From: Candidatus Omnitrophota bacterium
GTDB lineage: Bacteria > Omnitrophota > Gorgyraeia > Tantalellales > Tantalellaceae
Reading direction: 5' to 3'
Length of the DNA stretch: 64,000 bases
Assembly (NCBI GenBank): GCA_049642065.1
Contig: JBAROK010000032.1
Coordinates: 4,100-68,099, forward strand
Part shown: positions 3,286 through 33,080 of the stretch, piece by piece
Layout of the letters: the number at the start of each line of letters is the position of its first letter
Numbering within the stretch: the first letter of the stretch is position 1
Position numbers and translations under genes: made by a program
The notes under the pieces: model-generated
Database searches by the model: none
What the model was told of the DNA's origin: nothing
What the model saw: only the letters and a program-made list of their open reading frames with translations

Positions 3286-3576
3286 ATGGTATTCGGCCTT
3301 TTTGGTAAGAAAGAATCAGAAGAGGTTCTTGTCGGTGAAGTGATACATTATTTCCGCAAGGTTAAAGCCGCTGTTGTGAAAGTCAAGGAGAACAAAGTCG
3401 CTGTTGGGGACAGCATAAGGGTAAAAGGGAACACCACGGATTTTACCGAGAAAATTAAATCTATGCAGATCGACCACGAGATTGTGAACAGCGCTTCTAA
3501 GGGTAAAGAGGTGGCCATACAGATGAAAAAGAAAACAAGAAGGGGAGACAGAGTTTTTATCCTGAAGGAAAAATAA
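3286..3576 (+). CDS. Small hypothetical protein (96 aa), possibly a beta-barrel fold.
   Basis: GGAGGTGGG SD upstream of the ATG. The stop abuts the suhB start. No family recognised. Confidence 0.45.
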   Translation: MVFGLFGKKESEEVLVGEVIHYFRKVKAAVVKVKENKVAVGDSIRVKGNTTDFTEKIKSMQIDHEIVNSASKGKEVAIQMKKKTRRGDRVFILKEK

Positions 3577-4353
3577 ATGGACGAACTTAAAAAGATAAAG
3601 GAAGTAGCCGAGGCGGTTGCCAGGGAGGCAGGAGAATATGTTTACAGTCGCATGGGACGGTTAAAGGAGGTCTCTCATAAAAGCGGTATTAACGATCTTG
3701 TGACAGATGTAGATAAAGGTTCCGAACGCATAATAATCGAGAAGATTAAGGAGAATTTCCCGGACCATTCCATACTAGCCGAAGAAAGTGGGGAAGACAG
3801 TTCGGGGGGTGCTTTTAGGTGGGTTATTGATCCGCTTGATGGGACGACAAATTATACGCATTCGTTCCCTTTTTTCTGCGTATCCATCGGGGTCTTCTAC
3901 GATGATAAAGTAAAGATAGGGGTTGTGTATGATCCTTGCCGGGACGAGCTTTTTATTGCCGGTAAGGGAAACGGTGCTTTTTTGAACGGCAGTCCGATAA
4001 ATGTATCCGGAAGACAAACTCTAAGTGATTCGATGATAGCTACGGGGTTTGCATACAATATGGAGACAAAAAAAGCCAACTTGGGGCATTTCGGGATAAT
4101 GATGGAAACTGCCCAGTCGGTAAGGCGTGCTGGTTCTGCGGCATTGGACCTGTGTTATGTGGCCTGTGGCAGGTTCGACGGTTTTTGGGAACTAGGGCTT
4201 CACCCGTGGGATACTGCAGCAGGCCAGCTAATAGTTACTGAAGCGGGTGGTAAGGTGACAGATATGAGCGGCAAAGATTTTGATATATTCAAAAAAAATA
4301 TAATTGCCACTAACAGCAAGATTCATTTCGAGATGGTAAACCTGCTAAAATAA
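3577..4353 (+). CDS. suhB: Inositol monophosphatase family protein (SuhB-like).
   Basis: Classic WVIDPLDGTTNY metal-binding motif, EESG motif and a C-terminal WD...AG motif. Confidence 0.85.
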   Translation: MDELKKIKEVAEAVAREAGEYVYSRMGRLKEVSHKSGINDLVTDVDKGSERIIIEKIKENFPDHSILAEESGEDSSGGAFRWVIDPLDGTTNYTHSFPFFCVSIGVFYDDKVKIGVVYDPCRDELFIAGKGNGAFLNGSPINVSGRQTLSDSMIATGFAYNMETKKANLGHFGIMMETAQSVRRAGSAALDLCYVACGRFDGFWELGLHPWDTAAGQLIVTEAGGKVTDMSGKDFDIFKKNIIATNSKIHFEMVNLLK

Positions 4354-4487: not shown

Positions 4488-4536
4488 TGTAAATGTAAAG
4501 AAAGTAAGGTGAATTGACTTCGTAGGGGGTAGCAAC

Positions 4537-4908
4537 ATGAAATATCGGACAGTTATTGAGCTCATATGTGAAGCAGCGGATGAGGAAGAGGCTACGAATA
4601 TCGCAGGTGAGTATCTGAGAGGCGAAATGGATTTTGGCGTGGAAATGGGGTGCAAGACAGTATCTCTCTGGTCACACAAGATGAAAAAATGTGCGATTTA
4701 CACTGCAATGACATTTCTTGTATTTTCAGCACTGCTTTTTAAGGTTACGCCGCTAGATGGTAATGAAAAGATACGCAATACCGTCGGACCGGGACTTAGA
4801 GGCACTTATACGATAATGCCAGCTTTGAAGACAAAGCACAGATCCGACTTCAAGAAAGAGTGGGAACAGAAAAAACAGGAAGCTGTTCTTGACTTCCTGA
4901 AAAAATAA
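4537..4908 (+). CDS. Hypothetical protein with one predicted TM helix.
   Basis: ORF preceded by a GGGGG SD and followed by a terminator. No family recognised. Confidence 0.4.
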   Translation: MKYRTVIELICEAADEEEATNIAGEYLRGEMDFGVEMGCKTVSLWSHKMKKCAIYTAMTFLVFSALLFKVTPLDGNEKIRNTVGPGLRGTYTIMPALKTKHRSDFKKEWEQKKQEAVLDFLKK

Positions 4909-12729: not shown

Positions 12730-13824
12730 TTACTGAAGGTTTTCCTGGGCAGCGTACGCAATATCCCTGTCACAGCCTTTATAATATGTCTCAAGCACGT
12801 CTTGAGCAGGCTTATTCTGCGGGGTGAACTGACGGTTGTGTTTGCCGCCAGCACTCGTATTGGTATCCCATTTCCACCAGTATACGCCTGCAAGCCATGG
12901 TTCTTCCCACATGGTATCGAAGAATGCTTCGTAACACTGGGCCTGTAAGTCGGGATTGGCGTTACCATCTGTGCCGCTTTTCCAAGGAGTGTAAGGGGCA
13001 TGGGAAGTGCTGGGGTAACCGATCTCGGTGAATATTACAGGTTTATTCACGCGTTTCTGCCACTGTTCGATATCGTCTTTCCATTTTTCCCAACCTTTTT
13101 TCAGATCTTCTTTTGACGGGGAAGGCGCGTAAGTAAGTGGGAAATAAGCATCTATTCCTATATAGTCGAGCTCGTCCCAGAACCGTATGTTCTTGAAGTT
13201 ATCCCAGTTTGCGGCATACACGAGCTCACCGGAATAGACCTTTCTTACTTCGGCAATGAGCTTGCGCCACTCAGGATCCTTTTGTGTGGTGAAGGAAAGT
13301 TCTGTGCCTATGCAAAGCAGCTCGACCTTAAGCCTTTTTGACATATTGGCATAATGAAGGATGAGCTTTTGATATTCGCTGAACCATTTTTCCCATTCTT
13401 TTTCGCTGGCAAAACCTATGTCAGCTCGCCAATAGGTGCCGTCGTATTTATCTATCAGGTCGATATGAGGTTTAAGCATGATTTTCATGCCGAGTTTATG
13501 GGCTCGTTTAATGACATGGGTAAGGCTTATCTTGCTGGGAGTCTTATCTGTTCTTTTTATCTTTGTAGAATTGTATTTTTCCTGGTAATGCGTTGTGCAT
13601 ATCGATAAATATTCAACGCCCAGCGAGGCCAGTTTTTCAAGCGACGCGTCTGAATACTCTGAGGCAAAACGGTCCTTATCCCATGTTACATAGCACATGC
13701 CTTTTTGCAGCGGGAGTAATATTGCCTGAGAGTGCAGAGATGCAGTAGGCAGAAGAAGAGACGATATTATTGCCATCGAAACAATAACGCTTAGTGATTT
13801 TATTTTTAACTGACGAAATCCCAT
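12730..13824 (-). CDS. Secreted (beta/alpha)8 glycoside hydrolase, tandem paralog of 11549..12598.
   Basis: Collinear with the downstream paralog. Shared blocks include CY.TWDK.RFAS.YSD, MK.LKPHIDL, WRADIGF, IGTEL.FTT, YAANWDN and VIFTEIGY. Confidence 0.55.
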   Translation of the reverse strand: MGFRQLKIKSLSVIVSMAIISSLLLPTASLHSQAILLPLQKGMCYVTWDKDRFASEYSDASLEKLASLGVEYLSICTTHYQEKYNSTKIKRTDKTPSKISLTHVIKRAHKLGMKIMLKPHIDLIDKYDGTYWRADIGFASEKEWEKWFSEYQKLILHYANMSKRLKVELLCIGTELSFTTQKDPEWRKLIAEVRKVYSGELVYAANWDNFKNIRFWDELDYIGIDAYFPLTYAPSPSKEDLKKGWEKWKDDIEQWQKRVNKPVIFTEIGYPSTSHAPYTPWKSGTDGNANPDLQAQCYEAFFDTMWEEPWLAGVYWWKWDTNTSAGGKHNRQFTPQNKPAQDVLETYYKGCDRDIAYAAQENLQ

Positions 13825-14243
13825 TTCCCAACCTCCAAATAAAAAACCCTATTCGATAAGGACAGGCCTTAACAAATAGGGCTACAAAAGCGCTGGAGGT
13901 GACTGTTCGCCAGCACACTGATTTCGGTAATCCGACAACCATACCCTATAAGAATAGGGGTTAGGCTCAAGACTTTGCAGCCCCACTTTTTCAAGTGGTT
14001 TGCCCTTATCGATCAATCGATTTTTTTTGTTTAAAAAGAACTTTTCCCAGTACAATTAGAAGTTTAATGATAAAACATACAAAAAGCAAGATACTAACAT
14101 CAAACTTTTTAATTTTTAACGCATTTAGAATGAAATTTATTATAATAGTCCCTGCAAAACGATATTTCATTTGAGTTAAATATTTAAATACATTATAATT
14201 AGGGGTAAAATTATCCGGTGATTTTTTGTGAAAGGAAGGTAAA

Positions 14244-16460: not shown

Positions 16461-18228
<1,768 letters not shown>

Positions 18229-18236
18229 TGGTTAAC

Positions 18237-18275
18237 ATGTAGTGTGTGAGCTGATCTATAGCTCACACACTACAT
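18237..18275 (+). promoter_or_regulatory. Perfect 16-bp inverted repeat (stem-loop) between metY and cysK.
   Basis: ATGTAGTGTGTGAGCT - 7-nt loop - AGCTCACACACTACAT. No U-tract follows. It ends 20 nt before the cysK ATG and 6 nt before its SD. Confidence 0.6.
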
Positions 18276-18294
18276 TAGATAAAAGGAGACCTTC

Positions 18295-19227
18295 ATGAAG
18301 ATATACGACAACATAACGCAAACAATAGGTAATACGCCTCTTGTGCGAATGCCTAAGATAGATAAGGATCTCCCGGGGAATATTGTTGCTAAGGCGGAGT
18401 TTTTCAATCCCTTGGCTAGCGTCAAGGACAGGATAGGGCTTGCGATGATAGAAGCGGCAGAGAAAGAGGGCAAGCTTAAGAAGGATTCGATCATCATCGA
18501 GCCAACAAGTGGGAACACGGGTATTGCGCTTGCTTTCGTGTGTGCGGCCAAAGGGTACAAGCTTATGCTGACAATGCCTGATACGATGAGCAACGAACGG
18601 CGTGCGCTTCTAAAGATACTGGGTGCTGAGCTTGTGCTTACCCCCGGGGAGAAGGGGATGAAGGGTGCCGTTGACAAAGCGGAAGAGCTTGTTCAAAAGA
18701 CACCGGATGCGTTCATGCCTCAGCAGTTCGAGAACCCGGCAAACCCCGAAGTGCATAGAAGAACCACTGCGCAGGAAATATGGGACGATACCGATGGCAA
18801 CGTTGACATATTCGTAGCAGGTATTGGCACCGGTGGGACGATAACGGGAGTAGGAGAATTCTTTAAGAAGAAGAAGCCTGATGTGAAACTAGTCGGAGTA
18901 GAGCCTTCAGATTCGCCGGTACTTTCCGGGGGGGAGCCTGGGCCGCACAAGATACAGGGAATAGGGGCGGGATTCGTGCCTAAAGTCTTGAAAAAAGAAC
19001 TGTTAGATGAGATAATAACCATTCCTGATGATGAGGCGGGAGAATACGCGCGCCGTTTGGCTAGGGAAGAAGGTTTGCTTGTCGGGATATCTTCCGGCGC
19101 GAACGTGGCGGCAGCAGTAAAAGTAGCGTCTAGGGAAGAAAATAAAGGCAAGAATATTATTGTGGTTCTTCCCGATAGTGGCGAAAGATATTTAAGTACA
19201 TGGTTGTTTCAGGATTATTTGGACTAA
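18295..19227 (+). CDS. cysK: Cysteine synthase A (O-acetylserine sulfhydrylase).
   Basis: [11 protein letters not shown]-Lys in ASVKDR, TSGNTG and GIGTGGT motifs. About 310 aa. Confidence 0.9.
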
Positions 19228-19239
19228 TATAGAGGTAAA

Positions 19240-20379
19240 ATGGCAGAAAAGAAACAGTACGTAGAGACAAAATACTATAATATGTCCGCGGGCGAGAAAT
19301 TCGTTCTTGAAAGCGGCGTGAAGCTTAAAGAGCTTAAAATAGCTTATGAGACCTACGGTGAATTGAACGATGAGAAAAACAACGCCGTTCTTATATGTCA
19401 TGCTCTTTCAGGCGATGCTCATGCGGCAGGATATCATCGTGGAGAGCAAAAGCCCGGTTGGTGGGATGATATGATAGGTCCCGGCAAGGCTTTTGATACC
19501 GATAAGTATTTTGTGATCTGTTCGAATATCATAGGCGGATGTAAAGGATCAAGCGGTCCTAATTCTATCAACCCGGATACTGGTAAACCGTATGGCCTGA
19601 GTTTCCCGATCGTGTCGATCAAGGACATGGTGAATGCACAGAAGAAACTGGTGGATTTTCTGGGTATAGAGAAGTTACTTTCGGTATCTGGCGGGTCAAT
19701 GGGAGGCATGCAGGCGCTTGAATGGGTGATCTCTCATCCGGAAAATGTTGTTTCTTGTATCCCTATTGCCACATCGTATAAACATTCTGCCCAGCAGATA
19801 GCATTCGATGAGGTGGGCCGCCAGGCGATAATGTCCGATCCGGCATGGAACGCTGGTGATTATTATGAAAAGGACCATCCTTCAGCGGGTCTTGCGGTCG
19901 CTCGTATGATAGGCCATATCACGTACATGAGCTATAAATCCATGGAGAAAAAATTTGGCAGGATGCTGAAAAAAGAGAAGCTTGGGTACGAGTTCACGAC
20001 GGAATTCGAAGTGGAAGGATACTTAAGATATAGAGGCGACAGTTTCGTTAAGAGGTTCGATGCTAACTCCTATCTTTATTTAACAAAGGCAATGGATCAT
20101 TTCGACCTGGAACAAGACGAAAAGCTGATCCAGGTTTTTAAAGGTGTGGAATCACGGTTCCTGGTAATTGCGTTCAGTTCAGATTGGCTTTATCCTCCAT
20201 ACCAGTCTAAGGAAATAGTCAAAGCTCTTAAGATGAACGGGATAGACGTGACACATTGTGAGATAAGTTCGGATTACGGGCACGATGCGTTCCTGCTCGA
20301 GTTCGCTGAAGAAACAAAACTCATTAAGCATTTTCTTAATAACACGCATAAGAAACTGGAGAAGAAGAGTGGCAAGTAA
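19240..20379 (+). CDS. metX: Homoserine O-acetyltransferase.
   Basis: Alpha/beta hydrolase fold. Nucleophile elbow GGSMGG and C-terminal catalytic D/H. Confidence 0.9.
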
Positions 20380-20974
20380 GGTAAAAGAAGATTTAAGGCT
20401 CGACCATAAGGCGATCGGGGAGATGATATCGTCCGAGTCCATGGTGCTTGATATGGGCTGTGGGGACGGAGATCTTCTCGAATACCTTGTTCTGCAAAAG
20501 GACGTTAGGGGTAGTGGTGTCGAGATCAGCGAAGAAGCCATATATAAGTGTGTGGAAAAAGGGCTAAGTGTATCCCACGGCGACATAGATTCAGGGCTTA
20601 GAGAATATCCCGACGGGATGTTCGATTACGTCATTTTCAACCAGACGATGCAGCAGGTATATAGGCCGAAGGAAGCCATCATGGAGGCGCTGCGTATCGG
20701 TAAAGAAGTGATAATCGGATTTCCCAACTTCTGTTATCTGGGTGCCAGGCTACAGATATTTTTTACAGGGCATGTGCCTGTTACGCCTTCTTTGCCGTAT
20801 TCATGGTATGATACGCCGAACCTGCATTTTTTGAGTATCAAGGATTTCATCGAATTCTGCAAGGATCAGGATATAACTATTGAAAAAAGCGTTTTCCTTT
20901 CTGAGAAGGGGACGGTAAGGTTTCTGCCGAACCTTTTCGCTGTCAACGCTGTTTTTCAGATATCAAAAAAATAG
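20369..20974 (+). CDS. metW: Methionine biosynthesis protein MetW (SAM-MTase-like).
   Basis: [12 protein letters not shown] motif immediately after the metX stop. The GTG at 20369 is the likely start. The track's ATG at 20285 would overlap metX by 95 nt, and the ATG at 20423 would truncate the conserved N-terminus. Confidence 0.75.
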
Positions 20975-26727: not shown

Positions 26728-27771
26728 ATGAAGATAATCTCTATCGCTAATCAGAAAGGCGGTTGTGGTAAAACGACACTGGCGGTTAATATAGCCGCGG
26801 CGCTTGCCAGGCTAGGCAGCGAAACTCTTCTTATAGATCTGGATCCCCAGGCCCACGCCACGTTCGCTCTTGGTTACAGTAAAAAATCTTCCGAAAGAAA
26901 AACATCTTATGATATATTTCGTTCACATTTTGATAATACTGAAGTACCGTTCGAAGATATATTGATAACAGAAAGGAAGAAACTTTCTTTTATCCCGGCG
27001 AATATGATGCTTAGTGCCGCTGAGATAAACCTAGGCGGCGTTAACGGAGCAGCAGCCATATTACACAAGACGCTTCGTAATCCCTTTTTCTCGAAATACG
27101 AATACGTTATCATTGATTCTCCCCCCAGTTTTGGATTTCTGACACTAAACTCTATGTACGCTGCGGATATGATCCTCGTGCCGATGGATCTTAGTTATTT
27201 CTCGTTCAACGGCATAAACAGCGTTTACAGGGTAACGAGCCTGCTTAGTGCGGAAACGGGAAGAGAGCCTTCGGTCTTTTTCGTGATAAACATATTTGAC
27301 AAAAGATCGAATTTTGCGAAACAGTTCGAAAAAGACGCTAAAAAGAAGCTCGGGTCGTATTTGCTGCCAACGAAAGTACGTTCAAGTGTGCGTTTACGGG
27401 AGATCGCAAGACAAGGCAATACGATATTTGAGCACGATCCGAAATGCCCGGTAGCGCTTGACTTCTATAATCTTACCAGCGAGATACTCAACGCTGACAC
27501 CAAAGAGATAGCCGAGGAAATACGCGAGTTTACACTTCACGCTCCGGGAGCGGGTGCAGTGTATGTTCTCGGAGATTTTAACTGCTGGCAGAAGACCGAT
27601 GCGAGCCGTCTCAGTAAACTGGAAGACGGGCGCTGGTCGGCTCATTTCACGTTGCCTAAAGGGGAATATAGATACAAGTTCCTGGTAGACGATGAATGGC
27701 AACCCGATCCGAAGAACGTGAGTTCCGAAACCAATGTCTTCGGCACAGTTGACTCAATCCTGAAAATATAG
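26728..27771 (+). CDS. ParA/MinD-family P-loop ATPase fused to a C-terminal CBM48 (AMPK beta-type glycogen-binding) domain.
   Basis: Deviant Walker A NQKGGCGKTT with the signature Lys. ParA-like core of ~255 aa. The C-terminal ~85 aa read GDFNCWQ....W.....LPKGEYRYKFLVDDEWQPDP, the CBM48 signature. Confidence 0.8.
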   Translation: MKIISIANQKGGCGKTTLAVNIAAALARLGSETLLIDLDPQAHATFALGYSKKSSERKTSYDIFRSHFDNTEVPFEDILITERKKLSFIPANMMLSAAEINLGGVNGAAAILHKTLRNPFFSKYEYVIIDSPPSFGFLTLNSMYAADMILVPMDLSYFSFNGINSVYRVTSLLSAETGREPSVFFVINIFDKRSNFAKQFEKDAKKKLGSYLLPTKVRSSVRLREIARQGNTIFEHDPKCPVALDFYNLTSEILNADTKEIAEEIREFTLHAPGAGAVYVLGDFNCWQKTDASRLSKLEDGRWSAHFTLPKGEYRYKFLVDDEWQPDPKNVSSETNVFGTVDSILKI

Positions 27772-28463: not shown

Positions 28464-30026
28464 ATGGGTAACAAGATACGAGATTCATGGGGATCCCGAT
28501 TAGGGGTCATTATGGCGGTTGCGGGTTCTGCCGTAGGATTGGGGAACTTCCTTCGCTTTCCTGTTCAGGCGGCAAAGAACGGCGGCGGAGCTTTCATGAT
28601 ACCGTATTTTATCGCTCTACTTTTAGTAGGGATACCACTGATGCTGATAGAGTGGTCAATCGGGCGTTACGGCGGAGGATTCGAACATTCAACAGCGCCT
28701 GGAGTGTTCAATAGCTTGTGGCGAAAGAACCGGTTTATCAAGTATTTTGGTGTTATCGGTATATTTGGACCTCTCGTCATAATGATCTACTACACTTATA
28801 TCGAGTCGTGGACTCTTGCCTACAGCTTTTTCGCTCTTGTTCAAAAATATTCGGGCATAACCGACCAGGCTTCCATGCAGGCTTTTTTGAGGGGGTTCCA
28901 AGGGCTTGAGAAGAACCAGTATTTTTCGAATATATGGCCGGCATACACATTCTTTATCATCACTTTCGTCGTCAATATGGTAGTGCTGGGACACGGCATA
29001 AGGGGAGGCATAGAACGTTTTTGTAAGTTCGCTATGCCTACGCTATTGATATTCGGTGTTATTCTTACCATACGAGTTCTTACTCTAGGGACTCCGGATG
29101 CTGCCAGACCCGACTGGAGCATAGTCAACGGGCTGGGATACTTGTGGAACCCTGATTTCAGCCAACTCAAAAGCGCAAAAATATGGCTTGCCGCTACCGG
29201 TCAGATATTTTTCACATTGAGCGTAGGGATGGGAGTGATCCTGACATATGCCAGTTATCTTTCAAAGGGTGATGACGTAGCGCTTTCCGGGCTTACTGCT
29301 GTTAGCATGAACGAATCCGCCGAAGTACTGCTCGGCGGCAGTATCATCATACCGGCGGCGTTTGCTTTTTTTGGACCACTGGCAATAGGGGCGATAGCCA
29401 ATTCGGGGGCCTTCAATCTAGGGTTCGTAACGATGCCGCTTATTTTGCAGCAAATGCCGTTCTCAGAACTCTTCGGATTTCTATGGTTCGGGTTATTGTT
29501 CTTAGCAGGTGTTACCTCGTCTGTTTCAATGGCCCAGCCGGCTATCGCGTTTCTTGAGGACGAGTTTGATATCTCAAGAAAAAAAGCTGTAGCACTGTTC
29601 GGCGTAGTGACATTCACGTTGTGTAACGGAGCTATTTTCTTTCTGGGAAAAGGCGTGGTCGATGAGCTGGATTTCTGGGGTGGTACGTTCTGTCTGGTGC
29701 TTTTTGCTACAGTCGAAGTGATCCTCTTTGGATGGATATTCGGGATAAACAAAGCGTGGGAAGAAGTGCATCACGGAGCAGACCTTAAAATCCCGGGTAT
29801 ATATAAACATATTATTAAGTACGTGACGCCGTTATTTTTGCTTATAGTTCTAGCTGCGTGGTTTTTTCAGGAATGGCTGCCGATAATACGCATGGACAAT
29901 GTGCCTGCTGAGAACAGGGTATATATAATGGCGACACGTGTTGGTTTGTGTTTGATATTCCTCATATTGGCCGTAATGGTAAAGATAGCCTGGCGCAAAA
30001 AGAAGATAAAGGGGAAGAAGATATGA
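28464..30026 (+). CDS. Neurotransmitter:sodium symporter (NSS/SNF, LeuT-fold) family transporter.
   Basis: The N-terminus SRLGVIMAVAGSAVGLGNFLRFP is the NSS TM1 signature. About 11-12 TM segments. Confidence 0.9.
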   Translation: MGNKIRDSWGSRLGVIMAVAGSAVGLGNFLRFPVQAAKNGGGAFMIPYFIALLLVGIPLMLIEWSIGRYGGGFEHSTAPGVFNSLWRKNRFIKYFGVIGIFGPLVIMIYYTYIESWTLAYSFFALVQKYSGITDQASMQAFLRGFQGLEKNQYFSNIWPAYTFFIITFVVNMVVLGHGIRGGIERFCKFAMPTLLIFGVILTIRVLTLGTPDAARPDWSIVNGLGYLWNPDFSQLKSAKIWLAATGQIFFTLSVGMGVILTYASYLSKGDDVALSGLTAVSMNESAEVLLGGSIIIPAAFAFFGPLAIGAIANSGAFNLGFVTMPLILQQMPFSELFGFLWFGLLFLAGVTSSVSMAQPAIAFLEDEFDISRKKAVALFGVVTFTLCNGAIFFLGKGVVDELDFWGGTFCLVLFATVEVILFGWIFGINKAWEEVHHGADLKIPGIYKHIIKYVTPLFLLIVLAAWFFQEWLPIIRMDNVPAENRVYIMATRVGLCLIFLILAVMVKIAWRKKKIKGKKI

Positions 30027-30127
30027 AGCCGTTCGGCTGGATATTTATGACAGTCTCGTGGGTGATTATAACAGGACTGGTGATTTTTTGCTTCAGGAAG
30101 ATATTTGCTAAGAAACAGTTGGACTAA
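30023..30127 (+). CDS. 34-aa single-TM micro-protein translationally coupled to the NSS transporter (MetS-like small subunit candidate).
   Basis: Not in the ORF track. Its ATG overlaps the transporter stop (ATATGA). It encodes MKPFGWIFMTVSWVIITGLVIFCFRKIFAKKQLD, one TM helix with a basic tail. Confidence 0.4.
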   Translation: MKPFGWIFMTVSWVIITGLVIFCFRKIFAKKQLD

Positions 30128-30300
30128 TGCTTTCCGTTGTGCTCGGAAAGGGAGCGAAACCCTCGATTTTTTGTCTCCTGCAACAAAATTCCATATATTT
30201 TTTGCATTTTATAGAATTATGATATAATATTATGATATATATACCTATATATAAATATAATATGGTGTATGTACATTTCGCGCAAAGAAAGGAGGCGCAA

Positions 30301-31264: not shown

Positions 31265-31298
31265 TTGATAAGAGTGGGATAAAGTGGAGGTAAGTGGA

Positions 31299-31736
31299 GT
31301 GTTTTACGGAGAATATTTACATAATCTTGATAAGAAGAATCGTCTGATTGTACCGGCAAAGTTCCGCGATGTTATCGGGGAAAAGGGTATAGAGAAATTC
31401 TATATTAACCGGGGCCTGGACGAGTGTCTTTTCATGTTTCCTGAAAGCGAATGGAAAGCTCAGGAAAGCAGGTTCAGGGAGATGTCTTTCACCAAAAGCG
31501 AAGTAAGAAAATTCAGCCGCTTGTTCTTTGCTGGAGCTGTTGAAGTTGTACCGGACAAGCAGTGGCGGATACTTATCCCGGATTATTTGAAAGAATATGC
31601 TAACCTCTCCAGGAACATAATGGTAATAGGCGTTTCCAGTCGCATTGAGATCTGGGATAAGCAGAAGTGGGAAGAGTTCTATAAATATTCGAAACAGAAT
31701 TATGAGGAAATAGCCGAGAGACTAATAGACGTTTAA
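31299..31736 (+). CDS. mraZ: Transcriptional regulator MraZ.
   Basis: FYGEYLHNLDKKNRLIVPAKFR and a second DUF199 repeat. The GTG at 31299 matches the conserved MF.G N-terminus. An alternative GTG lies at 31284. Confidence 0.85.
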   Translation: MFYGEYLHNLDKKNRLIVPAKFRDVIGEKGIEKFYINRGLDECLFMFPESEWKAQESRFREMSFTKSEVRKFSRLFFAGAVEVVPDKQWRILIPDYLKEYANLSRNIMVIGVSSRIEIWDKQKWEEFYKYSKQNYEEIAERLIDV

Positions 31737-32204: not shown

Positions 32205-33080
32205 TTGCATCTTCCGGTTCTATTATGCGAAGTTTTAGAATATCTTTGCCCTGAGCCCGGGGATGTGATCCTTGACGGTACTCTAGGAGGAGGGGGGCAT
32301 GCCGTCCAGATAATTGAGAAGATAGCTCCTGGCGGCAAGCTTATAGGGATAGACAGGGATCCGGAAGCCATCGAGAGGATAATCCAGAAGTTCGGGAACC
32401 AGGGAATATTCGTTAATGATGATTTCCGCGGCGTTGATCGTATTTTGAAGGAGGTAGGGGCCGACTTGATCGACGGCGCGGTATTTGACCTGGGAGTATC
32501 CTCGTACCAGATCGATGACGGACGGAGGGGATTCAGTTTTTTAAAAGATGGACCGTTGGACATGCGGTTCGACGCGAGTAAAGGGATATCCGCGGAAAAA
32601 GTGGTCAACGAGTTCGGCAAGGAAGAGCTTGCGGACATAATAAAAACATACGGAGAAGAAAGACATGCCAAACTTGTGGCCGGAGCTATTTGCTCAGAAA
32701 GAAGAAAAAAGAGAATCGGTACCACAGGTGATCTTGTTGATGTTATTCGCCGGGCGGTAGGGCGTAAATATACTAGGCAGCGCATACATCCAGCGGCAAG
32801 GACTTTTCAGGCGCTGAGGATCTTTGTCAATGACGAGCTTGGGTCCGTGGAGGAAGCCGTGAAGAGGACTCTTCTTCATCTTCGTCCAGAAGCGAGGATA
32901 TGCGTAATATCGTTTCATTCGCTTGAGGACAGGATCGTCAAGAATATCTTCAGGGATGCCGCTAAGGCTGGAGAGGTGAGATTAGTGACCAAAAAACCGG
33001 TCTCTCCTTCTAAGGAGGAGGTTCGGTCAAATCCAAGGTCAAGAAGCGCAAAACTGCGCGTTGCGGAAAGATTGTCATGA
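32205..33080 (+). CDS. rsmH: 16S rRNA (cytosine1402-N4)-methyltransferase RsmH.
   Basis: HLPVLL.EVL, DGTLGGGGH and GVDRILKEVGADLID motifs. TTG start. Confidence 0.9.
   Translation: MHLPVLLCEVLEYLCPEPGDVILDGTLGGGGHAVQIIEKIAPGGKLIGIDRDPEAIERIIQKFGNQGIFVNDDFRGVDRILKEVGADLIDGAVFDLGVSSYQIDDGRRGFSFLKDGPLDMRFDASKGISAEKVVNEFGKEELADIIKTYGEERHAKLVAGAICSERRKKRIGTTGDLVDVIRRAVGRKYTRQRIHPAARTFQALRIFVNDELGSVEEAVKRTLLHLRPEARICVISFHSLEDRIVKNIFRDAAKAGEVRLVTKKPVSPSKEEVRSNPRSRSAKLRVAERLS

What the first reader, a model, noticed from the sequence alone, without database searches (positions are those of the whole stretch)
28464..30127. NSS (LeuT-fold) transporter with a translationally coupled 34-aa single-TM micro-protein, embedded in a Met/Cys-metabolism neighbourhood
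A small ORF (30023..30127, MKPFGWIFMTVSWVIITGLVIFCFRKIFAKKQLD) overlaps the transporter stop codon in the ATGA/ATATGA arrangement typical of coupled subunits. It is below the ORF-track size cutoff. In Corynebacterium the methionine importer MetPS consists of an NSS-family permease plus a small membrane subunit. Here the pair lies within ~10 kb of cymR, metY, cysK, metX, metW and mtnP, so a MetPS-like methionine (or other amino acid) uptake system is plausible. Small accessory subunits of NSS transporters are poorly catalogued.
Basis: partly seen in the sequence, partly recalled or inferred. Interest (0 to 1): 0.55.

Follow-up and report, generated by a model that had tools for sequence, protein, structure and literature searches.

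The report
Conserved micro-protein partner of LeuT-type transporters
A real, conserved 34-residue membrane micro-protein is translated right behind a close relative of the textbook amino-acid transporter LeuT; it belongs to a large uncatalogued family that accompanies most LeuT-type genes, though not Aquifex LeuT itself, and there is no good evidence that the pair is a methionine importer.

Summary
A 520-aa NSS transporter gene (28464-30026, +) ends in ATGA, which starts a 34-aa single-helix ORF (30023-30127).

The micro-ORF is a real gene:
- It is intact behind 76 of 80 orthologous transporters in Omnitrophota and other phyla.
- Third codon positions vary most (pN/pS 0.44).
- 74 of 77 copies start with ATG, 67 of 77 have a Shine-Dalgarno-like motif, and 55 of 77 have the ATGA overlap.
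- Its conserved residues lie on one helix face (p=0.0013).

The MetPS reading is only partly right. The architecture (12 TM plus 1 TM, coupled genes) matches MetPS. However, the transporter is a LeuT-clade protein: 50.7% identical to Aquifex LeuT, against 28-32% to MetS-linked transporters. None of 76 micro-proteins matches the curated MetS models (NF033493, PF16951). The Met/Cys genes lie 7.5 kb away behind seven unrelated genes, and that proximity is not conserved.

New here: the micro-protein family has at least 1,328 clusters at 50% identity, no Pfam or NCBIfam model, and is annotated only as 'hypothetical'. It occurs in the two LeuT-type lineages that bracket Aquificota LeuT, which lacks it, so loss is implied there. 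A paralogous branch sits in trehalose-synthesis operons.

Physical association with the transporter, and the substrate, are inferred and not shown.

The parts
28464..30026 (+). LeuT-clade NSS (SLC6-type) Na+-coupled amino-acid transporter gene, 520 aa, aligned across all 12 TM helices of LeuT
   Evidence: PF00209 at E 2e-56. phmmer against PDB LeuT chains (2A65 and others) gives E 1e-148 over residues 6-513 versus 5-508. It is 50.7% identical to LeuT. All Na1, Na2 and gate residues are conserved. The pocket differs at V104I, F259M, I359M and N21S.
30023..30127 (+). Micro-ORF encoding a 34-aa single-pass membrane protein (predicted N-out/C-in), the inferred 13th-helix partner of the transporter
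   Evidence: ORF seen. Intact homologue behind 76 of 80 orthologous transporters. Per-codon-position identity is 0.58/0.71/0.375 and pN/pS is 0.44. Conservation shows alpha-helical periodicity, p=0.0013. The C-tail averages 3.8 K+R against 0.34 for the N-tail.
30023..30026 (+). ATGA start/stop overlap (translational coupling)
   Evidence: Read directly from the sequence. The same 4-nt overlap occurs in 55 of 77 loci, and an 11-nt overlap in 3.
30009..30015 (+). Shine-Dalgarno-like AAGGGGA inside the transporter's 3' end, 7 nt before the micro-ORF ATG
   Evidence: A match of at least 4 nt to the SD core occurs upstream of the micro-ORF in 67 of 77 loci, against 17% of control windows inside the transporter ORF. 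Caveat: the Lys/Gly-rich tail codons are purine-rich in any case.
30130..30173 (+). Hairpin (CUUUCCG...CGGAAAG) followed about 15 nt later by a T-run after the micro-ORF stop; a possible weak operon end
   Evidence: Fold energy -17.6 kcal/mol but z-score only -1.07, so not significant. The terminator scan did not call it. Promoter-like sites for the next gene follow at 30171-30261.

Best explanation
The pair encodes a two-component Na+-coupled neutral amino-acid importer of the LeuT clade.

The 520-aa protein is the 12-helix LeuT-fold carrier, with complete Na1 and Na2 sites and both gates. The 34-aa product of the overlapping micro-ORF is made from the same mRNA by coupled translation. It inserts as a single helix with its N-terminus outside and its Lys-rich C-terminus in the cytoplasm. 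It packs one conserved face (G5, F8, S12, W13, I16, L19, C23) against the carrier as a peripheral 13th helix. There it would support assembly, stability or activity, as MetS does for MetP and as the collectrin/ACE2 TM helix does for B0AT1.

Shown: the micro-ORF is a protein-coding gene under purifying selection. It is tightly and almost exclusively linked to LeuT-clade genes across several phyla. It has one-sided helical conservation.

Inferred: physical binding to the carrier, its effect on transport, and the substrate. The likely substrates are small or aliphatic neutral amino acids, and methionine may be among them.

The micro-protein is not a recognisable MetS. It defines a separate, uncatalogued family that was probably present in the ancestor of the LeuT clade and was lost in Aquificota, including A. 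aeolicus LeuT.
For: - The ORFs, the ATGA overlap and the SD-like motif are in the sequence.
- The micro-ORF is intact in 76 of 80 orthologous loci. In 3 of 77 copies (L058, L068, L027) it is kept although 146-168 nt separate it from the transporter stop; in L058 and L068 that spacer is an inserted inverted-repeat sequence.
- The flanking genes of the window are shared only by its roughly 14 closest relatives, while the pair persists in the rest.
- The coding signature is present: position-3 identity 0.375 against 0.71 at position 2, pN/pS 0.44, and dN/dS about 0.32.
- 74 of 77 copies start with ATG, 67 of 77 have an SD-like motif against 17% of controls, and 55 of 77 have the ATGA overlap.
- The conservation moment peaks at 100 degrees per residue, permutation p=0.0013.
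- The charge distribution follows the positive-inside rule.
- In a reverse test, a back-translated micro-ORF pattern found 120 metagenome loci. Of the 114 with enough upstream DNA, 99 have a LeuT-like gene ending just upstream.
- The same family lies behind LeuT-like genes that are 63-65% identical to LeuT in Dadabacteria, Thermodesulfobacteriota and two further genomes, with HMM E-values of 5e-6 to 1e-8.
- The transporter matches LeuT at E 1e-148 with all ion-site and gate residues conserved.
- There is precedent for two-subunit NSS carriers. [quoted passage not shown] Each B0AT1 contacts the neck and TM helix of the adjacent ACE2 (PMC7164635).
Against: - There is no direct evidence of translation or of physical association.
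- A mutual-information scan over 120 pairs (Neff 42) was dominated by variable loops and did not locate an interface.
- Only 2 transporter positions distinguish the clades that carry the micro-protein from those that lack it.
- Aquifex LeuT and its close relatives lack the micro-ORF, and LeuT is known to transport on its own (my own knowledge). The helix is therefore not intrinsically required by this fold.
- About 13% of sampled family members form a paralogous branch that is not next to any NSS gene; these sit in trehalose-synthesis operons or next to Rnf and antiporter genes. The module can therefore work in other contexts.
- No transporter-micro-protein fusion appears among the best 147 representatives.
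Confidence: 0.68

Rival explanations
1. It is a true MetPS system: a methionine/alanine importer whose small subunit is a divergent MetS, functionally tied to the nearby Met/Cys biosynthesis genes.
For: - The gene order, overlap, size and predicted topology equal those of MetS-type pairs in Priestia, Bacillus and Acinetobacter.
- In a small NJ tree the MetS-linked transporters are the sister group of the LeuT clade, so the small subunits could share an ancestor.
- hhalign gives a weak alignment, E 6e-4 and probability 28%.
- A Met/Cys cluster is within 8-12 kb in the window, and L022 has Rrf2 and MetY 1.2 kb downstream of its pair.
Against: - 0 of 76 micro-proteins hit NF033493, NF033494 or PF16951 at E<=10, while the controls hit strongly.
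- None of 147 family representatives is significant against a MetS HMM.
- The transporter is only 28-32% identical to MetS-linked carriers, against 50.7% to LeuT.
- Seven unrelated genes, one on the opposite strand, separate the pair from the Met/Cys cluster.
- Met/Cys genes are absent near the pair in 85 of 86 related loci. In L022 a tRNA gene intervenes.
- No SAM riboswitch or T-box was found upstream.
Confidence: 0.1
2. The micro-protein is a genuine small membrane protein that does not bind the transporter. It would be a general membrane-state, osmotic or regulatory peptide that is merely co-transcribed with it.
For: - A paralogous branch (40-50 aa, with a KKGLGGED...KRLKK tail) is not NSS-linked. 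It lies after the TreT trehalose synthase in OtsA-OtsB-DUF5752-TreT clusters, or next to Rnf, Na+/H+ or Na+/Ca2+ exchanger genes.
- LeuT of Aquifex lacks a partner.
- No covariation signal was detected.
Against: - The 30-35-aa branch, to which the window's ORF belongs, is linked to LeuT-clade genes in 76 of 80 and 99 of 114 cases, across phyla and with changing neighbours.
- 58 of 77 copies overlap the transporter's stop codon.
- One-sided helical conservation is what a fixed protein-protein interface predicts. It is not expected of a free lipid-embedded peptide.
Confidence: 0.17
3. The micro-ORF is a split-off C-terminal 13th helix of an ancestrally longer transporter (a gene-fission remnant), or it is a non-coding or chance ORF.
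For: It directly abuts the transporter's 3' end. Small hydrophobic ORFs can arise by chance in AT-rich intergenic DNA.
Against: - Chance is excluded by the amino-acid-level conservation, the codon-position pattern and the conserved length of 30-35 aa in 71 of 77 copies.
- Fission is unlikely on topology. LeuT's TM12 ends in the cytoplasm, so a fused TM13 would run from inside to outside, whereas the charge bias predicts the micro-protein runs N-out to C-in (plus LeuT topology from my own knowledge).
- No fused form appears among 120 LeuT-like proteins or among 147 family representatives, the longest of which is 92 aa.
Confidence: 0.03

Closest known systems
MetPS of Corynebacterium glutamicum and the 'MetS family NSS transporter small subunit' (NCBIfam NF033493/NF033494, Pfam PF16951 MaAIMP_sms)
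   Same: - An NSS carrier plus a single-TM peptide of about 30-60 aa, encoded immediately downstream and often overlapping the stop codon (Priestia L082, Bacillus L085, Acinetobacter L084).
- The same predicted N-out/C-in topology with a basic C-tail.
- A mid-helix W-G motif in both.
   Different: - No detectable sequence-family membership: 0 of 76 hits, and hhalign probability 28%.
- Different conserved motif: GW.F...SWG.I..L..FCF against M..GM.IIWGGL..SI.
- The partner carrier is LeuT-clade, not MetP-like (28-32% identity).
- No evidence here for methionine specificity or regulation.
LeuT of Aquifex aeolicus (aq_2077; PDB 2A65 and many others)
   Same: - Full-length homologue, E 1e-148, 50.7% identity, aligned over all 12 TMs.
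- Identical Na1 residues (A22, N27, T254, N286), Na2 residues (G20, V23, A351, T354, S355), gates (R30-D404, R5-D369, W8, Y268) and E290.
   Different: - The LeuT gene in A. aeolicus VF5 and in relatives 80-88% identical to it is followed directly by sppA or a DUF4149 gene. No micro-ORF of this family lies within the fetched flanks (2-3 kb on each side).
- The window's pocket differs at V104I, F259M (Ile in 76 of 81 orthologues), I359M (Leu in 76 of 81) and N21S.
Eukaryotic SLC6 carriers with single-TM accessory proteins (B0AT1/SLC6A19 or SIT1 with collectrin or ACE2)
   Same: A LeuT-fold NSS carrier that contacts the single TM helix of a separate protein (PMC7164635). That protein is needed for surface expression (abstract of PMC11696832).
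   Different: The eukaryotic partners are large type-I glycoproteins with no sequence relation to this micro-protein. They act in trafficking, which has no direct bacterial equivalent.
Small subunits of other prokaryotic secondary transporters, for example MttS/MttQ of MttP in Methanosarcina
   Same: Small proteins of under 100 aa that are described as subunits regulating a secondary transporter (bioRxiv 10.64898/2025.12.02.691841; title and abstract seen).
   Different: A different transporter family and unrelated sequences. This is an analogy only.

Membership tests
MetS family NSS transporter small subunit (NF033493 / NF033494 / PF16951) | Scores above the curated cut-off of the family HMMs | tested here: not met
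   The window peptide and all 76 orthologous micro-proteins give no hit at E<=10. The positive control, the Priestia small subunit, gives NF033493 at 5e-15 (54.9 bits, cut-off 25) and PF16951 at 6e-7. All MetS-type database hits carry PF16951; none of the 108 micro-family hits does.
MetS family NSS transporter small subunit (NF033493 / NF033494 / PF16951) | Remote homology detectable by profile-profile comparison | tested here: inconclusive
   hhalign of A1 (76 sequences) against A4 (15 MetS sequences) gives probability 28.5% and E 6e-4 over 32 columns, with no motif register. A MetS HMM against 147 family representatives gives a best E of 0.014.
MetS family NSS transporter small subunit (NF033493 / NF033494 / PF16951) | Encoded directly downstream of, and co-oriented with, an NSS carrier gene; single TM; 30-60 aa; basic cytoplasmic C-tail | tested here: met
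   Comparison loci L082, L084 and L085.
MetS family NSS transporter small subunit (NF033493 / NF033494 / PF16951) | The partner carrier belongs to the MetP-type group of NSS transporters | tested here: not met
   The window carrier is 28-32% identical to the three MetS-linked carriers and 50.7% to LeuT. The LeuT clade, which includes the window's carrier, is monophyletic and excludes them in 200 of 200 NJ bootstraps. Sampling is small.
MetS family NSS transporter small subunit (NF033493 / NF033494 / PF16951) | The carrier depends functionally on the small subunit; Met/Ala uptake | not testable with these tools
   This requires transport assays. The primary paper (Trotschel et al. 2008) is not in the held library. 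Only secondary statements were read.
NSS / SLC6 family, LeuT clade (the transporter) | PF00209 domain and full-length alignment to LeuT across TM1-TM12 | tested here: met
   PF00209 at 2e-56. phmmer to LeuT chains at E 1e-148, residues 6-513 against 5-508.
NSS / SLC6 family, LeuT clade (the transporter) | Na1 and Na2 site residues, extracellular and intracellular gate residues, and E290 | tested here: met
   All are identical in the window protein and in at least 78 of 81 orthologues. V23 varies only to Ile or Leu, and its contact is through the backbone carbonyl (LeuT literature, my own knowledge).
NSS / SLC6 family, LeuT clade (the transporter) | Substrate-pocket residues identical to LeuT, which would imply the same specificity | tested here: not met
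   V104I, F259M (Ile in 76 of 81), I359M (Leu in 76 of 81) and N21S. The pocket stays aliphatic, so a neutral amino acid is likely, but the specificity cannot be assigned.
Methionine regulon / Met-Cys functional neighbourhood | Conserved gene proximity or a shared regulatory element (SAM riboswitch, T-box) | tested here: not met
   Only L022 among 86 related loci has Rrf2 and MetY nearby, separated from the pair by a tRNA gene. The 10-kb contexts of L095 and L096 have none. Rfam finds no riboswitch at the pair in the window or in 11 related loci. Limit: most loci carry only 3-kb flanks.

The most novel reading that the evidence does not exclude
The LeuT clade was ancestrally a two-subunit (12+1 helix) transporter. 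On this reading the micro-protein is a stoichiometric 13th helix that controls the activity or stability of most LeuT-type carriers, and the model protein from Aquifex is an atypical member that lost it.

Paralogues of the same helix sit in trehalose-synthesis and cation-antiporter contexts. The module might therefore act as a membrane- or osmotic-state sensor that tunes solute uptake.
Probability: 0.25. Interest if true: 0.75.

Novelty: new variant of a known kind. Interest (0 to 1): 0.55.

Why it matters
LeuT is the structural and mechanistic reference for all neurotransmitter:sodium symporters, and it has been studied as a single polypeptide. These results indicate that the sampled LeuT-type genes outside Aquificota come with a conserved, uncatalogued 30-35-aa membrane helix. 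The family has at least 1,328 clusters at 50% identity, has no Pfam or NCBIfam model and is annotated only as 'hypothetical'.

If the helix is a true subunit, three things follow:
- It gives a simple bacterial model for how single-TM accessory proteins modulate LeuT-fold carriers, comparable to MetS and to collectrin/ACE2 with B0AT1.
- It suggests add-back experiments with LeuT itself.
- It would correct genome annotation for thousands of genomes, where the ORF is usually missed because it is so short.

Conversely, these results remove the tempting but unsupported annotation of this pair as a methionine importer.

Tried and rejected
No complex model was obtained.
I solved this by putting a 43-aa homologue first in the alignment.
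3. The search for related loci with the micro-protein alignment on metagenomes failed because no stretch was conserved enough. I replaced it with a hand-made degenerate DNA pattern.
4. I searched for specificity-determining positions, meaning residues shared by both micro-bearing clades but different in 46 Aquificota sequences. Only A119S and I325V were found, and they do not cluster on a surface.
5. Mutual information with APC correction between 513 carrier columns and 31 micro-protein columns used 120 pairs (Neff 42). The top pairs fall in variable loops and termini. There is a mild excess in TM12 (10 against 3.6 expected), mostly in its variable C-terminal tail. This is inconclusive.
6. I looked for fused 13-TM forms. 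The 614-622-aa Aquificota LeuT-like proteins carry an internal insertion, not a C-terminal micro-protein. No long proteins appear among the 147 best family representatives.
7. The terminator after the micro-ORF is a hairpin that is not better than shuffled sequence, z -1.07.
8. Rfam found no riboswitch or leader at the pair.
9. The exact micro-protein is not on record as a called gene.
10. The literature searches found no paper on small subunits of LeuT-clade carriers. The MetPS primary paper is not held.
11. The best Pfam and NCBIfam near-hits of the peptide (YlaH, TMEM213, MPN207a accessory protein; E 0.01-0.2) were rejected as hydrophobic-helix noise far below the cut-offs.
Full report
**1. 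The observation**

The window carries a 520-aa ORF at 28464-30026 (+) that matches the SNF/NSS family (PF00209, E 2e-56; NCBIfam 'sodium-dependent transporter'). Its stop codon TGA (30024-30026) overlaps the ATG (30023-30025) of a 34-codon ORF that ends at 30127. This ORF encodes MKPFGWIFMTVSWVIITGLVIFCFRKIFAKKQLD. A purine-rich AAGGGGA lies 7 nt upstream of that ATG.

**2. Is the micro-ORF real?**

A scan of one genome per GTDB species returned 80 loci whose transporter is 66-86% identical to the window's. Most are Candidatus Omnitrophota, so the window is from that phylum. Others are labelled Auribacterota, FCPU426, Desulfatiglans/Deltaproteobacteria, Sedimentisphaerales/Phycisphaerae and Verrucomicrobiota.

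Downstream of the transporter:
- 76 loci have an intact homologous ORF.
- One is cut by the contig end.
- Two (L045, L052) carry frameshifted remnants.
- One (L018) lacks it.

The consensus is MxxxGWxFLxxSWGxIxxLxxFCFxKIFxKK. G5, S12, W13, I16, L19 and C23 are at least 90% conserved.

Across the 77 copies, counting the window's:
- Mean pairwise identity is 0.58, 0.71 and 0.375 at codon positions 1, 2 and 3.
- pN/pS is 0.44, and dN/dS is about 0.32 for the less saturated pairs.
- 74 of 77 start with ATG.
- Length is 30-35 aa in 71 of 77.
- 55 have the ATGA overlap, 3 have an 11-nt overlap, and the rest have gaps of -1 to +32 nt.
- 67 of 77 have a match of at least 4 nt to the Shine-Dalgarno core 4-18 nt upstream, against 17% of control windows inside the transporter ORF. 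The Lys/Gly-rich tail codons contribute to this purine richness.

In three loci (L058, L068, L027) 146-168 nt separate the micro-ORF from the transporter stop, yet the ORF is intact. In L058 and L068 that spacer is an inserted inverted-repeat sequence, and the ORF has its own SD-like motif.

The window's flanking genes (ParA-CBM48, RF-1-domain, Smr, PC4-like, PilZ, MraZ) are shared only by its roughly 14 closest relatives. The transporter/micro-ORF pair persists in all the others. Chance and non-coding readings are excluded.

**3. What the micro-protein looks like**

Residues 4-25 form a hydrophobic helix. The C-tail carries on average 3.8 Lys+Arg and the N-tail 0.34, which predicts an N-out/C-in orientation. 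Per-column conservation along residues 4-25 has a helical moment that peaks at 100 degrees per residue, with permutation p=0.0013. G5, F8, S12, W13, I16, L19 and C23 lie on one face, and the variable positions 4, 7, 10, 11, 14, 15, 18, 21 and 25 lie on the other. This pattern is expected for a peripheral helix that packs one face against a partner protein and exposes the other to lipid.

**4. What the transporter is**

Searched against all PDB sequences, the best matches are the Aquifex aeolicus LeuT chains, at E about 1e-148 over residues 6-513 against 5-508. MhsT follows at 1e-44 and the eukaryotic SLC6 carriers at about 1e-32. Identity to LeuT is 50.7% over 503 aligned positions.

All Na1 residues (A22, N27, T254, N286), Na2 residues (G20, V23, A351, T354, S355) and gate residues (R30-D404, R5-D369, W8, Y268, Y108, F253), and also E290, are conserved in the window protein and in at least 78 of 81 orthologues. 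The side-chain pocket differs at V104I, F259M (Ile in 76 of 81), I359M (Leu in 76 of 81) and N21S. It remains an aliphatic pocket, so a Na+-coupled neutral amino-acid carrier is the safe assignment. The preferred substrate cannot be read from the sequence.

**5. Comparison with MetPS**

PGAP annotates a 'methionine/alanine import family NSS transporter small subunit' directly behind NSS genes in Priestia megaterium and Acinetobacter baumannii. A homologous unannotated ORF occupies the same position in Bacillus sp. N5-665. Their sequences (for example MDGSSITMMVVGMVIIWGGLAASIAHAVKKAKESKASG) hit NF033493 at 5e-15 and PF16951 at 6e-7. Database relatives all carry PF16951.

By contrast:
- None of the 76 Omnitrophota-type micro-proteins hits these models, even at E<=10.
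- All 108 database relatives of the window peptide are 'hypothetical' or unnamed (apart from three stray JGI labels such as 'choline-glycine betaine transporter'), with no Pfam domain.
- hhalign between the two families gives only 28% probability.
- The MetS-linked carriers are 28-32% identical to the window's carrier.

The layout and predicted topology are therefore MetPS-like, but family membership fails for both subunits. The secondary literature confirms that MetPS is regarded as a two-subunit NSS carrier (PMC3219685). The primary paper could not be read. My statement that MetP function depends on MetS rests on my recollection of that paper.

**6. The Met/Cys neighbourhood**

An Rrf2-family regulator, metY, cysK, metX and metW lie at 16461-20974. 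Between them and the transporter lie a UvrD/PcrA-like helicase, a YhaM-like HD/OB protein, a zincin-like protein, a minus-strand CBM27-like protein, a ParA-CBM48 protein, an RF-1-domain protein and an Smr protein. The transporter starts 7 nt after Smr and so appears to belong to that operon.

In related genomes:
- Only L022 has Rrf2 and MetY within 3 kb, and a tRNA gene separates them from the pair.
- Two 10-kb contexts show a KTSC-domain gene with a giant glycosyltransferase gene (L095) and trp genes with DUF3568 (L096) instead.
- Rfam finds no SAM riboswitch or T-box near the pair.

The metabolic link is not supported.

**7. Extent of the family and relation to LeuT itself**

LeuT-like genes that are 63-65% identical to LeuT also carry a divergent member of the family overlapping or just after the stop codon. 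These come from two further genomes (contigs of 1.8 and 2.7 Mb), a Dadabacteria MAG and a Thermodesulfobacteriota MAG. An example is METDALIFLIISWGTTLGLLSFCIIKMNKNNKN, and the HMM E-values are 5e-6 to 1e-8.

In contrast, the LeuT gene of A. aeolicus VF5 (AE000657) and its 88% identical relative are followed directly by sppA, which overlaps the stop, and the 80% identical Aquificota relative by a DUF4149 gene. No family member lies within the fetched flanks of 2-3 kb.

An NJ tree places Aquificota LeuT as sister to the 63-65% group. That pair is sister to the Omnitrophota-type group. The whole is sister to the MetS-linked carriers. All of these nodes have 100% support in 200 bootstraps, but the tree has only 31 taxa and 2 outgroups. 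The micro-protein occurs on both sides of the Aquificota branch. The parsimonious reading is ancestral presence in the LeuT clade and loss in Aquificota. An unlinked copy elsewhere in Aquificota genomes was not excluded.

A profile search of 1.84 billion representatives finds 1,328 clusters at E<=0.001 and 99 at E<=1e-10. The listed best hits are all 31-92 aa long, with no fusions, and none matches MetS significantly.

**8. Reverse association**

A degenerate DNA pattern built only from the micro-ORF (G5, W6, F8, S12, W13, I16, L19, FCF) hit 120 metagenome loci. All have a start codon at the expected -12 position. Of the 114 with at least 150 nt upstream, 99 have a LeuT-like gene ending just upstream, 50-82% identical to the window's.

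The other 15 form a distinct branch of 40-50 aa with the signature MKLSGWIFMI.SW.FILSLA.FCF.RIFKKGLGGED..KRLKK. They are not next to an NSS gene:
- Eight lie directly after a TreT-type trehalose synthase, mostly in OtsA-OtsB-DUF5752-TreT clusters.
- Two are followed by a Na+/Ca2+ exchanger gene (one of them, L100, is also one of the eight TreT loci).
- Two lie after RnfA; in L108 a Na+/H+ exchanger gene lies about 1 kb downstream.

The helix module can therefore live outside the NSS context. This tempers the claim that it is an obligate subunit, but it does not affect the tight linkage of the 30-35-aa branch to which the window's ORF belongs.

**9. Mechanism**

Shown:
- The micro-ORF is a coding gene under purifying selection.
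- It has translation signals and start/stop coupling.
- It has single-TM N-out/C-in features and one-face conservation.
- It is linked to LeuT-clade carriers.

Inferred: the peptide docks as a 13th helix on the carrier and supports its assembly, stability or activity. The analogies are MetS, and the TM helix of ACE2/collectrin that contacts B0AT1 (PMC7164635).

A split-gene origin is unlikely. LeuT's TM12 ends in the cytoplasm, whereas the micro-protein is predicted to start outside the cell.

I could not locate the interface:
- The covariation scan was inconclusive.
- The specificity-position scan gave only two positions.

**10. Verdict**

The finding is real. It is best described as a LeuT-clade amino-acid transporter with a conserved, uncatalogued micro-protein partner, and not as a MetPS methionine importer. 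The kind of system, an NSS carrier with a small subunit, has been known since 2008. The family, its breadth, its specific tie to the LeuT clade and its absence from the model LeuT appear to be new, as far as Pfam, NCBIfam, database names and the held literature show.

Interest is moderate, at 0.55. The finding is directly testable and relevant to a paradigm protein, but the functional claims are still inferences.

Noticed in passing
L100, L126, L131, L152, L165, L170, L187, L188 (after TreT); L108, L138 (after RnfA); L139 (before Na_Ca_ex): A paralogous branch of the micro-protein family: 40-50 aa, MKLSGWIFMI.SW.FILSLA.FCF.RIFKKGLGGED..KRLKK. It is not adjacent to any NSS gene. It usually ends an OtsA(GT20)-OtsB-DUF5752-TreT trehalose-synthesis cluster, or lies next to Rnf, Na+/H+ or Na+/Ca2+ exchanger genes. 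This hints at an osmoadaptation context.
   Followed up: partly
L097 (A. aeolicus VF5 AE000657, 3001-4542), L087, L090: The model LeuT gene and its Aquificota relatives lack the micro-ORF. sppA (Peptidase_S49) overlaps the LeuT stop codon by 14 nt instead. An unlinked copy elsewhere in those genomes was not searched for.
   Followed up: partly
L058 about 4534-4700 and L068 about 3437-3605: An insert of about 150-170 nt with nested inverted repeats (TTGACAA...TTGTCAAGGGTC type, MITE-like) lies between the transporter stop and the micro-ORF. The micro-ORF stays intact with its own SD-like motif.
   Followed up: no
L018, L045, L052: These are the three loci without an intact micro-ORF. L018 has none, and L045 and L052 have frameshifted remnants. 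They group together in the NJ tree, next to L017, which has an intact copy. This suggests one secondary loss or decay in that sub-lineage, or assembly errors.
   Followed up: partly
window 13923-14014 (-): A c-di-GMP-I riboswitch aptamer (RF01051, 67.7 bits, gathering score 35, E 9e-11), immediately upstream of the minus-strand gene at 12730-13824.
   Followed up: no
window 26728-27771 (+): A ParA/MinD-type P-loop ATPase (AAA_31, CbiA) with a C-terminal glycogen-binding CBM48/AMPK1_CBM domain, which is an unusual fusion. It heads the apparent operon ParA-CBM48, RF-1-domain protein (ArfB-like), Smr, transporter, micro-ORF.
   Followed up: no
P0293, P0295, P0298, P0300, P0316, P0319, P0322, P0324 and others (614-622 aa): Aquificota LeuT-like proteins about 100 aa longer than LeuT. 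Their N- and C-termini align with LeuT, so the extra sequence is an internal insertion and not a fused micro-protein.
   Followed up: partly
window 28464-30026, residues aligned to LeuT F259 and I359: The window's carrier has Met at both pocket positions (F259M, I359M). Only 4-5 of 81 orthologues share this, and most have Ile/Leu. Its meaning for substrate preference is unknown.
   Followed up: no
L022 5876-7542; L165 6291-7690: Rrf2-regulator plus MetY or CysK-type (PALP) gene pairs recur a little downstream of micro-ORF loci in two unrelated contexts. In L022 the pair is NSS-linked and separated from them by a tRNA gene. In L165 the micro-ORF is trehalose-linked. This is probably coincidence.
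   Followed up: no
window 31284 onwards: The division/cell-wall (dcw) cluster seems to start just downstream, with MraZ at 31284-31736 and RsmH at 32205-33080.
   Followed up: no
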